DNA from: Escherichia coli
GTDB lineage: Bacteria; Pseudomonadota; Gammaproteobacteria; Enterobacterales; Enterobacteriaceae
Assembly: GCF_044324875.1 (NCBI RefSeq)
Contig: NZ_CP172185.1
DNA: 64,000 nucleotides
Strand: one strand, 5' to 3'
Below the pieces are notes generated by a model. It worked only from the letters and a program-made list of their open reading frames with translations. It searched no databases and had not been told where the DNA came from. Below are positions 58,025 through 58,152 of the stretch, in pieces. The stretch's first letter is position 1. Every line of letters starts with the position of its first letter. Made by a program: the position numbers and the translations under genes.

Positions 58025-58152
58025 GTTACATTATGCTTGTTGCTTGTTGCTTGTTGCTTGTTGCTTGTTGCTTGTTGCTTGTTGCTTGTTGCTTGTTGCT
58101 TGTTGCTTGTTGCTTGTTGCTTGTTGCTTGTTGCTTGTTGCTTGTTGCTTGT
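58025..58152. repeat. Heptanucleotide tract: about 17 copies of GCTTGTT (AACAAGC on the gene strand) with one 3-bp GTT irregularity
   Basis: Read directly; lies between ccdB stop (58212) and methyltransferase start (57983), beginning about 40 bp upstream of the methyltransferase ATG. Confidence 0.9.

What the first reader, a model, noticed from the sequence alone, without database searches (positions are those of the whole stretch)
58025..58152. Seventeen-copy heptanucleotide tract (GCTTGTT) immediately upstream of the methyltransferase-nuclease operon: candidate phase-variation switch
Seen in sequence: a near-perfect 7-bp tandem repeat with one 3-bp irregularity lies in the intergenic region between ccdB and the methyltransferase start, beginning about 40 bp upstream of the methyltransferase ATG. 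Established knowledge: simple-sequence repeats in promoters or reading frames of R-M and other surface or defence genes mediate slipped-strand phase variation. Inference: changes in copy number could alter promoter spacing and switch the cassette on and off, which would also relieve self-restriction risk.
Basis: partly seen in the sequence, partly recalled or inferred. Interest (0 to 1): 0.6.

Follow-up and report, generated by a model that had tools for sequence, protein, structure and literature searches.

The report
Repeat-driven on/off switch for restriction-modification genes
A perfect 17-copy 7-base repeat in front of an E. coli DNA-methylase/nuclease pair changes length from strain to strain. 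It most likely switches the genes on and off by shifting the reading frame of a tiny upstream gene whose ribosomes must unzip a hairpin that hides the methylase's ribosome-binding site.

Summary
The tract is real: 17.0 perfect copies of TGCTTGT at 58034-58152 (sense strand ACAAGCA), 50 nt upstream of the methyltransferase ATG. I found no irregularity in it.

Between identical flanks in other E. coli, the copy number is 4, 5, 7, 8, 11, 11, 13, 13, 14 and 17. A second lineage has 7-14 copies, and a third is fixed at 2. So it is a hypermutable simple-sequence repeat (SSR).

The promoter-spacing idea is not supported. On the sense strand the tract lies inside a small leader ORF (SD-like AAGGG, ATG at 58160).
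- Two of the three frames leaving the tract stop at once (TAATGTAA).
- The third runs through a 14-bp hairpin (-17 kcal/mol) that buries the methyltransferase Shine-Dalgarno.
- That third frame ends at a TGA 1 nt before the ATG.

The same design recurs with different repeat units (5, 7 or 11 nt) upstream of homologous methyltransferase-nuclease pairs in six other genera. It also recurs upstream of a Type III mod gene in the same E. coli ICE.

Best reading: a frame-dependent translational-coupling switch, on when n is a multiple of 3. The window allele (n=17) is predicted off or low.

Closest precedent: the Streptococcus gallolyticus pil1 leader-peptide repeat, which acts on a terminator. I rate this a new variant of a known kind. 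No expression data exist.

The parts
58034..58152 (-). Heptanucleotide SSR, (ACAAGCA)17 on the sense strand (TGCTTGT on +). It has no stop codon in any sense frame and is predicted to be unstructured as RNA.
   Evidence: TRF: 17.0 copies, 100% match. Copy number is 2-17 in other E. coli with conserved flanks. No stable pairing of the tract in the fold.
58026..58160 (-). Leader ORF (uORF) of 44 codons at n=17: ATG 58160-58158, CTA AT, the tract, then ATA ATG TAA (stop at 58028-58026). An SD-like AAGGG lies at 58173-58169.
   Evidence: Read from the sequence. The ATG and AAGGGA are conserved in all three E. coli lineages. An equivalent SD+ATG precedes the tract in all five leaders from other genera where that region is present (Moraxella, Mannheimia, Spirabiliibacterium, H. 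paraphrohaemolyticus and an Elusimicrobia MAG). PGAP calls this ORF in strain 2013C-3033; that is an automatic call, not proof of translation.
58026..58033 (-). TAATGTAA immediately after the tract. It provides stop codons for two of the three frames that leave the tract (TAA at 58033-58031 and at 58028-58026).
   Evidence: Frame table. Both TAA codons are kept in the other E. coli lineages (TAATATAA) despite substitutions around them. Analogous paired early stops occur in every other Type II leader.
57983..58017 (-). Anti-SD/SD hairpin: UUUCAAACCUUCAA - UACUGUU - UUGGAGGUUUGAA(A). It has 14 bp and pairs the methyltransferase SD GGAGG (57994-57990), the spacer and the A of the AUG.
   Evidence: MFE -17.0 kcal/mol, z = -5.55, 0 of 200 shuffles as stable. 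It is invariant in all E. coli alleles. Equivalent hairpins with different stem sequences occur in the other genera. It is not a terminator: no T-run follows and no terminator hit was found.
57985..57987 (-). TGA that ends the third (read-through) frame of the leader ORF, 1 nt before the methyltransferase ATG (UGA-A-AUG). This is a termination-reinitiation geometry.
   Evidence: Alysiella has the same geometry (TGA at -4). Moraxella has TGA at -6. [H.] felis, Spirabiliibacterium and the E. coli Type III leader have an ATGA overlap. H. paraphrohaemolyticus has a TAATG overlap.
56829..57983 (-). EcoRI-family N6-adenine DNA methyltransferase, 384 aa.
   Evidence: Pfam PF13651, E 1.9e-131. PADLOC MTase_II, 7e-96. 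The N-terminus aligns with homologs that start at the same position.
55641..56813 (-). GmrSD_N (DUF262) + HNH nuclease, 390 aa. It starts 15 nt after the methyltransferase stop and has its own SD (AAGGAAAA).
   Evidence: Pfam PF03235 3e-21 and PF01844 3e-6. PADLOC REase_II, 3e-86, full length. Found downstream of the methyltransferase in 74 of the 80 GTDB species loci. Junction sequence.
58212..58783 (-). ccdA (58783-58535) and ccdB (58535-58212) toxin-antitoxin pair directly upstream, on the same strand. No terminator lies between ccdB and the leader.
   Evidence: RefSeq annotation of identical loci. Pfam CcdA/CcdB tags. Terminator scan negative.
58818..58846 (-). Promoter-like site upstream of ccdA (TTGATT-17-CATAAT). 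It is a candidate source of transcripts that read through into the leader.
   Evidence: The only minus-strand sigma-70-like hit in 57700-59300. This is a consensus match only.
58179..58184 (-). TTGACA hexamer, followed 17 nt later by AATGCT (3 of 6 matches), which overlaps the leader ATG. A possible weak promoter that lies entirely upstream of the tract.
   Evidence: Read from the sequence. It falls below the scan threshold. It is CTGACA with shifted spacing in E. coli lineage 2, and among other genera is present only in Spirabiliibacterium.

Best explanation
The tract is a hypermutable simple-sequence repeat (a contingency locus) that controls a two-gene restriction-modification system carried on an E. 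coli integrative conjugative element (ICE).

It does not sit in a promoter. It sits inside a short leader ORF on the mRNA. Because the unit is 7 nt, each gain or loss of a unit shifts the leader's reading frame.
- In two frames (n = 1 or 2 mod 3) the ribosome stops at TAATGTAA just after the tract. That is about 10-15 nt before a 14-bp hairpin that pairs the methyltransferase Shine-Dalgarno and start codon, so initiation stays blocked (off or low).
- In the third frame (n = 0 mod 3) the ribosome reads through and melts the hairpin, terminates at a UGA 1 nt before the AUG, and the methyltransferase is translated by coupling or reinitiation (on).

The nuclease, 15 nt downstream on the same mRNA, probably follows, either through polarity or because it depends on the methyltransferase.

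The window allele (n = 17) is predicted to be off or low.

What is shown: the tract, its polymorphism, the ORF and stop layout, the hairpin, and the conservation of all of these across genera. What is inferred: that the leader is translated, that the hairpin blocks initiation, and the sign of the switch.
For: 1. Hypervariability. With 100% identical flanks, n = 17, 11, 14, 7, 13, 11, 5, 8, 4 and 13. Lineage 2 has n = 12, 9, 12, 7 and 14. Two short-read contigs end exactly at the tract.
2. Leader anatomy: SD-like + ATG 8 nt before the tract, stops at -50 and -45 in two frames and at -4 in the third, and a hairpin of -17 kcal/mol, z = -5.55, covering GGAGG and the A of the AUG.
3. Convergence. 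Homologous methyltransferase + DUF262-HNH pairs carry different units at the same place: Mannheimia (AATCA)13, Spirabiliibacterium (AACGC)13, Alysiella (AACACGC)>=8, [Haemophilus] felis (TTCGG)n, H. paraphrohaemolyticus (an 11-mer x 11), and Moraxella (degenerate CAGCA). Wherever the region upstream of the tract is present, each has its own SD+ATG (two contigs start inside the tract). All six have two early stops, a hairpin that buries the SD, and a third-frame stop at -6 to +8. Unit lengths are 5, 7 and 11, never a multiple of 3.
4. The stems differ in sequence but stay complementary. For example, the spacer UUUGAA pairs with UUCAAA in E. coli, AUUGAG with CUCAAU in Alysiella, and UUGAUG with CAUCAA in Moraxella.
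5. Each leader's stop pattern arises in only 2-8% of shuffles, and at least four sequence-distinct designs share it.
6. Control: of 67 homologs without an SSR, the median start-region dG is -4.9 kcal/mol and 6 reach -13. Of the 6 SSR leaders from other genera, 5 reach -13, as do both E. coli leaders. Homologs without an SSR lack a leader ORF.
7. The same module, GAGG-ATG-AA-(ACGCA)n ... CCUCC/GGAGG hairpin ... ATGA, precedes a Type III mod gene in the same ICE. There n = 7, 13, 25, 25, 30, 33 and 47.
8. Two MAGs carry the SSR inside the 5' end of the methyltransferase ORF itself, which is classic frame-based switching in the same family.
9. Published parallels: in S. gallolyticus pil1 a leader-peptide SSR was shown experimentally to work through ribosome melting of a downstream hairpin (PMC3894217). 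In Bibersteinia trehalosi a Type III methyltransferase with (CGCAA)n 43 bp upstream was active at n=15 and inactive at n=14 and 17, and this was left unexplained (PMC4996451).
Against: - There are no expression, methylome, transcription-start or ribosome-profiling data, so translation of the leader and the on/off assignment are inferred.
- The E. coli leader SD (AAGGG, about 9 nt from the ATG) is weaker than in the other genera.
- If TTGACA-17-AATGCT is the real promoter, transcripts would start inside the tract and lack the leader ATG.
- None of the 10 lineage-1 alleles is in the predicted on frame. This could reflect selection, or it could mean the frame assignment is wrong.
- Lineage 3 is fixed at n=2 in an 'off' frame and has an extra U that removes the TGA coupling geometry, yet its genes are mostly intact.
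- The H. paraphrohaemolyticus and Moraxella hairpins are not significant against shuffles (z = -1.2 and -1.9).
- The leaders are partly homologous, so they are not fully independent observations.
- Copy numbers taken from short-read assemblies may be collapsed (PMC5909438 makes this point).
- The stop-pattern criterion was defined after I had seen the data.
Confidence: 0.6

Rival explanations
1. Length rheostat in the 5' UTR. The transcribed tract tunes expression gradually with its length. This could work as in the H. influenzae hmw 7-nt repeat, or by acting as an unstructured A/C-rich ribosome standby site next to the structured ribosome-binding site. No leader ORF would be needed.
For: The closest sequence-level analogue is the hmw heptamer upstream of hmw1A/2A, where expression falls as copy number rises and the repeat is part of the 5' UTR (PMC12721329). 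The tract is A/C-rich, has no U, and is predicted to be unstructured beside a stable RBS hairpin. CA-rich single-stranded tails strongly boost translation from sequestered ribosome-binding sites (PMC5934652).
Against: - The standby effect saturates at 16-18 nt, so variation between 28 and 119 nt should not matter.
- In hmw the repeats themselves form a long hairpin with a G-rich arm. Here the tract pairs with nothing.
- This model does not explain the conserved SD+ATG before the tract, the two early stops, the third-frame stop at the start codon, or why all units are 5, 7 or 11 nt.
- The [H.] felis unit, TTCGG, is not A/C-rich.
Confidence: 0.12
2. The leader ORF is real, but its output is transcriptional. 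When the leader stops early, the untranslated gap and the untranslated methyltransferase mRNA allow Rho-dependent, or attenuation-like, termination. Read-through translation prevents this, as in S. gallolyticus pil1.
For: There is an experimental precedent for leader-peptide SSRs controlling transcription through a downstream hairpin (PMC3894217). The tract RNA is C>G and unstructured. The nuclease must be co-regulated somehow.
Against: - The hairpin has no U-run after it and only 4 G-C pairs in 14, and no terminator-like site is found.
- Its 3' arm is the SD plus the start codon in every genus, which points to control of initiation.
- The tract contains no YC dinucleotides, which Rho's primary binding site prefers (my own knowledge, not tested here).
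- This mechanism could add to the main one rather than replace it.
Confidence: 0.1
3. Promoter-architecture switch. Copy number changes the spacing or helical phase between promoter elements, or between an upstream element and a promoter at the tract's downstream edge.
For: TTGACA lies 26 nt upstream of the tract. CATAAT (5 of 6 matches) is formed at the junction of the last unit and the flank. SSRs in promoter spacers are a classic mechanism. Three units equal 21 bp, or two helical turns.
Against: - TTGACA and CATAAT are already 22 nt apart even with no repeat units, and 141 nt apart at n=17.
- The -35 position relative to CATAAT always falls inside the repeat and matches 1 of 6.
- The scan finds no promoter there.
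- TTGACA is CTGACA in lineage 2.
- Copy numbers within a lineage are not restricted to one class mod 3.
- 'CATAAT' is better explained as the pair of stop codons, which are what is conserved in other genera.
Confidence: 0.06
4. Neutral microsatellite. The tract is unstable but has no regulatory consequence.
For: No functional data exist. Lineage 3 retains intact genes with only 2 units.
Against: Unrelated SSR units recur at the homologous leader position in seven genera and before two different classes of R-M system. The frame and hairpin architecture is maintained, and homologs without an SSR lack it.
Confidence: 0.05

Closest known systems
Streptococcus gallolyticus pil1/pil3 leader-peptide (GCAGA)n switch (Danne et al. 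2014, PMC3894217)
   Same: The SSR lies inside a short leader ORF with its own ribosome-binding site. The unit is not a multiple of 3. The frame decides whether the leader stops well before a downstream stem-loop or reaches it. A translating ribosome melts the stem-loop to switch on the downstream genes.
   Different: There the stem-loop is an intrinsic transcription terminator with a 6-T run, and the output is transcriptional anti-termination of pilus genes in a Gram-positive. Here the stem-loop has no T-run. It consists of the downstream gene's Shine-Dalgarno and start codon, with a leader stop overlapping or adjoining the start, which indicates translational coupling. The cargo is an R-M system in Gram-negatives.
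Phase-variable methyltransferases (phasevarions): Type III mod and Type I hsdM/hsdS, including the STEC Type III mod with CAGCGAC[n] (Atack et al. 2018, PMC5909438)
   Same: SSR-driven switching of a DNA methyltransferase in a host-adapted bacterium. Heptanucleotide units occur in E. coli. Methyltransferase alleles have swapped variable blocks while the partner protein is conserved.
   Different: In those systems the SSR is inside the methyltransferase ORF. Here the methyltransferase ORF is untouched and the SSR is in a separate upstream ORF. The system is scored as Type II (EcoRI-family methyltransferase + DUF262-HNH nuclease), a class not listed among phase-variable R-M systems in the 2025 review.
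H. influenzae hmw1A/hmw2A (ATCTTTC)n upstream repeat (PMC12721329)
   Same: A heptanucleotide SSR of about 10-30 copies lies 50-100 nt upstream of the start codon and is transcribed as part of the leader.
   Different: The hmw repeats pair with a G-rich arm to form a long hairpin that RNase III processes, and expression changes gradually with length. Here the tract is unpaired, and the layout points to three-state frame dependence.
Previously noted but unexplained SSRs upstream of methyltransferase genes: H. influenzae F3031 (CAAG)32, 58 bp upstream of an EcoRI-like adenine methylase (PMC2651432), and Bibersteinia trehalosi (CGCAA)14-17, 43 bp upstream of a Type III methyltransferase (PMC4996451)
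   Same: The position is the same (about 43-58 nt before the ATG). The unit sizes are not multiples of 3. The H. influenzae case involves the same methyltransferase family, and the Bibersteinia case uses the same unit as the E. coli Type III leader. The Bibersteinia activity data (15 on; 14 and 17 off) fit frame dependence.
   Different: Those reports list the repeats without proposing a mechanism. I could not retrieve their sequences to check for the leader ORF or the hairpin.
Classical translational coupling through SD-sequestering structures (for example mok-hok, and rpmI-rplT in the IF3-L35-L20 operon; my own knowledge)
   Same: Translation of an upstream ORF that ends at or near the downstream start opens a structure that hides the downstream ribosome-binding site.
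   Different: In those systems the coupling is constitutive or is regulated by trans factors. Here a mutable repeat would decide whether the upstream ribosome ever reaches the structure.

Membership tests
SSR contingency locus (slipped-strand phase variation) | A long, perfect tandem repeat of a short unit | tested here: met
   17.0 copies, 100% identity, period 7.
SSR contingency locus (slipped-strand phase variation) | Copy-number polymorphism among close relatives with conserved flanks | tested here: met
   n = 4-17 with identical flanks in lineage 1 and 7-14 in lineage 2.
SSR contingency locus (slipped-strand phase variation) | Length heterogeneity within one culture, and reversible switching | not testable with these tools
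   Needs read-level or fragment-length data.
SSR contingency locus (slipped-strand phase variation) | Expression of the linked gene depends on copy number | not testable with these tools
   No expression or methylome data. Inferred from the architecture only.
Promoter-spacer SSR switch | The tract lies between -35 and -10 elements, or between an activator site and the promoter, so that unit changes alter the spacing | tested here: not met
   No sigma-70-like pair at or across the tract. The tract is 14-119 bp long. The candidate TTGACA/AATGCT pair lies wholly upstream and is not conserved.
Leader-peptide SSR attenuation switch (S. gallolyticus pil1 type) | The SSR lies inside a short leader ORF with its own ribosome-binding site, and the unit is not a multiple of 3 | tested here: met
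   AAGGG-N8-ATG, then 5 nt, then the tract. The unit is 7 nt. The same holds in the five leaders from other genera where the upstream part is present.
Leader-peptide SSR attenuation switch (S. gallolyticus pil1 type) | The frame determines whether the leader stop lies well upstream of a stem-loop, or within or beyond it | tested here: met
   Stops at -50 and -45 versus -4. The hairpin spans -34 to 0.
Leader-peptide SSR attenuation switch (S. gallolyticus pil1 type) | The stem-loop is an intrinsic transcription terminator (G+C-rich stem followed by a U-run) | tested here: not met
   No T-run follows: the stem runs straight into ATGTCAAAG. Only 4 of 14 pairs are G-C. No terminator hit was found. 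The 3' arm is the SD plus the start codon.
hmw-type heptamer 5'-UTR element | The repeats form the arm of a long hairpin with a complementary G-rich region (an RNase III substrate) | tested here: not met
   The tract has no partner in the fold of the whole intercistronic region. The overall z is -0.9, and the only stable helix is the SD hairpin.
Phasevarion (phase-variable methyltransferase regulon) | Methyltransferase expression switched by an SSR | tested here: inconclusive
   The architecture supports it, but there are no expression data.
Phasevarion (phase-variable methyltransferase regulon) | Allelic variation of the target-recognition region | tested here: met
   The window and lineage-3 methyltransferases are about 98% identical except for two blocks (residues ~205-262 and ~333-368). 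The nucleases are 96% identical throughout.
Phasevarion (phase-variable methyltransferase regulon) | Methylation-dependent changes in the expression of other genes | not testable with these tools
   Needs methylome and transcriptome data from on and off variants.
Type II restriction-modification system | Separate methyltransferase and endonuclease genes that match curated Type II models | tested here: met
   PADLOC MTase_II 7e-96 and REase_II 3e-86, both full length. The pair is conserved in 74 of 80 species loci.
Type II restriction-modification system | The endonuclease independently recognises the same sequence as the methyltransferase | tested here: inconclusive
   The methyltransferase's variable blocks change while the nuclease does not. 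This suggests the nuclease may not carry its own matching specificity. Biochemistry is needed.

The most novel reading that the evidence does not exclude
The RBS-ATG-SSR-double stop-anti-SD/SD hairpin-overlapping stop/start cassette may be a portable and so far unrecognised class of translational phase-variation switch. It would convert frameshifts in a leader ORF into on/off translation of an intact downstream methyltransferase. It has been recruited with many different repeat units to Type II-like and Type III R-M systems in Enterobacteriaceae, Pasteurellaceae, Neisseriaceae and Moraxellaceae. One E. coli ICE carries two independent copies. If correct, it would extend phasevarions to Type II-like systems and explain published 'upstream SSR' puzzles.
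Probability: 0.5. Interest if true: 0.78.

Novelty: new variant of a known kind. Interest (0 to 1): 0.68.

Why it matters
- SSR-based phase variation is regarded as rare in E. coli, and for R-M systems it is documented for Types I and III with the repeat inside the gene.
- If the model holds, surveys that look only for repeats inside methyltransferase ORFs miss a whole class of switches.
- Mobile elements in E. coli and in veterinary and human pathogens could then stochastically toggle defence and genome-wide methylation. That would affect phage resistance, DNA uptake and possibly gene regulation.
- Earlier unexplained observations (H. influenzae F3031, Bibersteinia trehalosi) would gain a testable mechanism.
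- The design keeps the enzyme's coding sequence intact, so switching costs no protein sequence.
- Because the nuclease appears not to co-vary with the methyltransferase's variable blocks, switching may be safe for the host.

Tried and rejected
- **Mod-3 pattern.** The first seven genomes suggested copy numbers within a lineage differ only by multiples of 3 (17/14/11 and 12/9). More alleles (7, 13, 5, 8, 4, 13; 7, 14) broke the pattern, so I dropped it as evidence.
- **Metagenome scan.** An exact-match scan of JGI metagenome contigs with a 30-nt conserved flank found nothing.
- **Plasmid collection.** It holds only ccdAB relatives, not the cassette.
- **NCBIfam.** No model for the methyltransferase, the nuclease or CcdA.
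- **PDB sequence search.** No solved relative of the nuclease.
- **Rfam.** No known RNA family in the leader.
- **Promoter/terminator scan.** Nothing at the tract.
- **Bibersteinia trehalosi locus.** I tried to reach it through homologs of the E. coli Type III Mod. No Bibersteinia protein was among the 120 best hits listed, so the model could not be tested on that sequence.
- **Four more distant methyltransferase homologs.** These proved to lack SSRs. They were useful only as negative controls.
- **Literature searches.** Searches combining phase variation with translational coupling, uORF or leader ORF, or SD sequestration found no description of this mechanism. The library lacks most subscription journals.
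Full report
**Observation.** Tandem Repeats Finder reports one array of period 7 with 17.0 copies, 100% matches and no indels at window 58034-58152. Reading the sequence confirms it. The '3-bp irregularity' does not exist. The gap to the methyltransferase ATG is 50 nt, not about 40. All relevant genes are on the minus strand:
- ccdA, 58783-58535
- ccdB, 58535-58212
- the tract
- an EcoRI-family adenine methyltransferase, 57983-56829 (Pfam PF13651, E 2e-131)
- a GmrSD_N/DUF262 + HNH nuclease, 56813-55641, which starts 15 nt after the methyltransferase stop and has its own SD

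PADLOC scores the pair as a Type II methyltransferase (7e-96) and a Type II restriction enzyme (3e-86, full length). On the sense strand the repeat unit is ACAAGCA.

**Context.** The whole cassette is present in only 6 of 5,426 complete E. coli genomes. It is always chromosomal and sits among integrating-conjugative-element genes (TIGR03756/03757, TraG_N, integrase). The exact methyltransferase protein is nevertheless indexed in more than a thousand assembly blocks.

**Is the tract variable?** Yes. In loci whose flanks are identical to the window, the copy number is 17 (window), 11, 14, 7, 13, 11, 5, 8, 4 and 13. A second lineage (flanks about 97% identical) has 12, 9, 12, 7 and 14. A third has 2 copies in every genome seen. 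Two short-read contigs end exactly at the tract. Draft assemblies may under-report length, as Atack et al. noted for another E. coli repeat (PMC5909438). However, the seven loci taken from complete genomes alone give 2, 2, 5, 9, 11, 12 and 14, and the window has 17. This is the signature of a hypermutable SSR.

**An early lead that failed.** The first seven genomes suggested changes only in multiples of three units. The larger sample refuted that.

**Anatomy on the sense strand.** After the ccdB stop come these elements in order:
- TTGACA (58184-58179)
- an SD-like AAGGG (58173-58169)
- ATG (58160-58158), then CTAAT
- (ACAAGCA)17
- TAATGTAA
- a U-run
- the stem-loop UUUCAAACCUUCAA / UACUGUU / UUGGAGGUUUGAA(A)
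- the methyltransferase AUG

The stem-loop has 14 bp. It pairs the whole SD GGAGG, the spacer and the first base of the AUG. It folds at -17.0 kcal/mol with z = -5.55, and 0 of 200 shuffles are as stable. It is not terminator-like: no T-run follows, only 4 of 14 pairs are G-C, and there is no scan hit. The tract itself pairs with nothing. No Rfam family matches.

The ATG opens a leader ORF that contains the whole tract. The tract has no stop codon in any sense frame. The frame that leaves the tract depends on n mod 3:
- n = 1 mod 3: the leader stops at the first TAA (-50).
- n = 2 mod 3 (the window): it stops at the second TAA (-45, 58028-58026).
- n = 0 mod 3: it stays open through the hairpin and ends at a TGA 1 nt before the methyltransferase ATG (UGA-A-AUG).

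PGAP annotates exactly this ORF as a hypothetical protein in a strain with n=12. That is an automatic call, not evidence of translation.

**Comparative test.** A protein-guided scan of one genome per species returned 80 loci with the methyltransferase at 54-81% identity. In 74 of them the nuclease (47-76% identity, mostly 60-76%) lies downstream, usually directly. So this is an old, widespread two-gene system.

Most members, largely Bacteroidota and Chloroflexota, have ordinary upstream regions. Host-associated Proteobacteria, however, carry SSRs at the same place with unrelated units:
- Mannheimia haemolytica: (AATCA)13
- Spirabiliibacterium falconis: (AACGC)13
- Alysiella crassa: (AACACGC)>=8
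- [Haemophilus] felis: (TTCGG)n
- H. paraphrohaemolyticus: an 11-mer x 11
- Moraxella pluranimalium: a degenerate (CAGCA)~4.6 followed by the same TAATGTAAC as in E. coli

Two of these contigs ([H.] felis and Alysiella) start inside the tract, so the leader start cannot be seen there. Where it can be seen, a good SD (AAGGA or AGGAG) and an ATG lie 0-6 nt before the tract. In all six genera:
- two exit frames stop within about 15 nt of the tract
- a hairpin buries the methyltransferase SD
- the third frame stops at -6 to +8 relative to the ATG, as TGAnATG, ATGA or TAATG overlaps

The stems differ in sequence yet remain complementary. The freely evolving spacer between SD and ATG always has a matching partner upstream. 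Hairpin z-scores are -3.4 to -4.8 for four genera and -1.9 and -1.2 for Moraxella and H. paraphrohaemolyticus.

In two MAGs (Acinetobacter, Elusimicrobia) the SSR sits inside the 5' end of the methyltransferase ORF itself. That is the classical frame-shift arrangement in the same family.

**Controls.**
- Shuffling each post-tract region reproduces the pattern 'two early stops plus one stop at the start codon' in only 2-8% of trials, and at least four sequence-distinct designs share it. The criterion was set after seeing the data, and the leaders are partly homologous.
- Among 67 homologs without an SSR, the 49 nt around the start fold at a median of -4.9 kcal/mol (z about 0.2), and 6 reach -13. 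Five of the 6 SSR leaders from other genera reach -13, as do both E. coli leaders.

**A sister switch.** One assembly (L012) showed (ACGCA)15-N-(ACAAGCA)12 with no ccdAB. Following this up showed that the same ICE carries a Type III mod-res pair about 15 kb away, outside the window. Its leader is GAGG-N7-ATG-AA-(ACGCA)n, then a CCUCC/GGAGG hairpin, then a TGA overlapping the mod start as ATGA. Its copy number in complete E. coli genomes with identical flanks is 7, 13, 25, 25, 30, 33 and 47. The module therefore serves two unrelated methyltransferase classes.

**Mechanism.** The best-supported reading is a frame-dependent translational-coupling switch. Only when n is a multiple of 3 does the leader ribosome traverse and open the hairpin and terminate next to the AUG, which allows the methyltransferase to be translated. 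Otherwise it stops 10-15 nt before the hairpin and the SD stays buried. The window allele (n=17) would be off or low.

What is shown: the tract and its polymorphism, the ORF and stop layout, the hairpin, and their conservation. What is inferred: that the leader is translated, that the hairpin blocks initiation, the sign of the switch, and co-regulation of the nuclease.

**Points against.**
- The E. coli leader SD is weak.
- None of the 10 lineage-1 alleles is in the predicted on frame.
- Lineage 3 is locked at n=2 in an off frame, and an extra U abolishes its TGA geometry, yet its genes are mostly intact. One has an IS1 in the nuclease.
- The promoter has not been mapped.

**Rivals.**
- *Promoter spacing.* This fits poorly. 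No promoter-like pair spans the tract. TTGACA and the junction CATAAT are too far apart at any n. TTGACA is mutated in lineage 2 and, outside E. coli, occurs only in Spirabiliibacterium, whereas the SD+ATG is present wherever the leader start can be seen.
- *hmw-like length rheostat.* This lacks the repeat-containing hairpin that defines the hmw system (PMC12721329).
- *Ribosome standby.* This could explain the A/C-rich, unstructured composition. But standby tails saturate at 16-18 nt (PMC5934652), so it cannot make the length variation meaningful.
- *Transcriptional polarity.* Rho-type polarity after early leader termination may add to the effect. It is not needed to explain the hairpin.
- *Neutral microsatellite.* This is hard to reconcile with the recurrent, architecture-preserving convergence.

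**What is known.**
- The closest mechanistic precedent is the S. gallolyticus pil1/pil3 (GCAGA)n leader peptide. Genetics there showed that longer leader frames let ribosomes melt a downstream terminator (PMC3894217). The present element meets that family's leader-ORF and frame criteria but fails the terminator criterion. Its hairpin is a ribosome-binding site.
- Phase-variable methyltransferases are well known for Type III and Type I systems, including a STEC Type III mod with an intragenic CAGCGAC[n] (PMC5909438).
- A (CAAG)32 tract 58 bp upstream of an EcoRI-like methylase in H. influenzae F3031 was listed without a mechanism (PMC2651432).
- A (CGCAA)n tract 43 bp upstream of a Bibersteinia Type III methyltransferase was active at n=15 and inactive at n=14 and 17. 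The authors said it 'warrants further study' (PMC4996451). This fits frame dependence, but I could not retrieve the sequence.
- Searches for phase variation combined with translational coupling, uORFs or SD sequestration found no description of this design. A 2025 review does not mention leader peptides or Type II systems. The library omits most subscription journals, so prior description cannot be excluded.

**Side observation that bears on feasibility.** The window methyltransferase and the lineage-3 methyltransferase are about 98% identical except for two replaced blocks (residues ~205-262 and ~333-368). Their nucleases are 96% identical with no matching variable region. This is the allele pattern of Type III mod/res. 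It suggests the nuclease does not carry its own matching specificity, which would make on/off switching less dangerous to the host.

**Verdict.** The 'phase-variation switch' interpretation is supported in general, but not in its promoter-spacing mechanism. The element is best described as a new variant of a known kind: a leader-ORF SSR switch that acts on translation initiation of an R-M system rather than on a terminator. No experiment yet supports the functional steps.

Noticed in passing
Outside the window (about 15 kb beyond its 3' end, by synteny). NZ_CP128970.1 ~965322-965560 = L106 4822-5060, minus strand.: The same E. coli ICE carries a second SSR leader upstream of a Type III mod-res pair. 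It reads GAGG-N7-ATG-AA-(ACGCA)n, then a CCUCC/GGAGG hairpin, then a TGA overlapping the mod ATG. In complete genomes n = 7, 13, 25, 25, 30, 33 and 47. The res gene is frameshifted in TUM1886.
   Followed up: partly
L012 2790-2950 (GCA_030142865.1, CP126293.1): (ACGCA)15-N-(ACAAGCA)12 is fused directly, with ccdAB and about 16 kb missing. This is either a deletion by recombination between the two A/C-rich SSR leaders or an assembly mis-join (an N sits at the junction).
   Followed up: partly
window 56829-57983 (-) versus L005 7231-8376: The methyltransferase alleles are mosaic. They are about 98% identical except for two replaced blocks (aa ~205-262 and ~333-368). The adjacent nuclease is 96% identical throughout. 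This resembles target-recognition-domain swapping in Type III mod alleles, and it questions whether the 'Type II' nuclease has its own specificity.
   Followed up: partly
window 23439-23839: An array of about 9-11 copies of a 36-bp unit. Each unit contains the palindrome ATGGTGCCACTGGCACCAT followed by an A-rich spacer. It looks like an iteron or centromere-type protein-binding array of the ICE.
   Followed up: no
window 26927-27106, 60946-61062, 63741-63857: A 61-nt element with two small G+C-rich hairpins (GTCGCTCCGGCGAC and GGCC...CGCCTTCGGGTGGCC) occurs as tandem pairs or triplets at three places in the window. It is a dispersed repeat family of unknown role.
   Followed up: no
window 29505-29626: A 12-bp unit (AAGGCCGTGCTG) repeated about 7 times, with higher-order periods of 24 and 36 bp. 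Because 12 is a multiple of 3, it is probably a coding peptide repeat.
   Followed up: no
window 55211-55534 (+): A type B (zinc-independent, YkgM-like) ribosomal protein L31 paralog is encoded on the ICE right next to the R-M cassette. It is conserved there in other strains.
   Followed up: no
L015 and L021 (contig ends): Short-read assemblies break exactly at the tract, 49 nt before the methyltransferase ATG. The locus is therefore systematically fragmented or collapsed in draft genomes, and copy numbers from drafts are lower bounds.
   Followed up: yes
L088, L092, L071, L027 (Bacteroidota MAGs), about -45 to +4 of the methyltransferase start: A few homologs without an SSR also have unusually stable structures over the start region (dG -15 to -20 kcal/mol, z -2.9 to -5.2). 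Their meaning is unknown.
   Followed up: no
L006 / L024 (E. coli 2015C-3121): An IS1 insertion splits the DUF262-HNH nuclease in one lineage-3 strain, the lineage whose tract is fixed at 2 copies.
   Followed up: no
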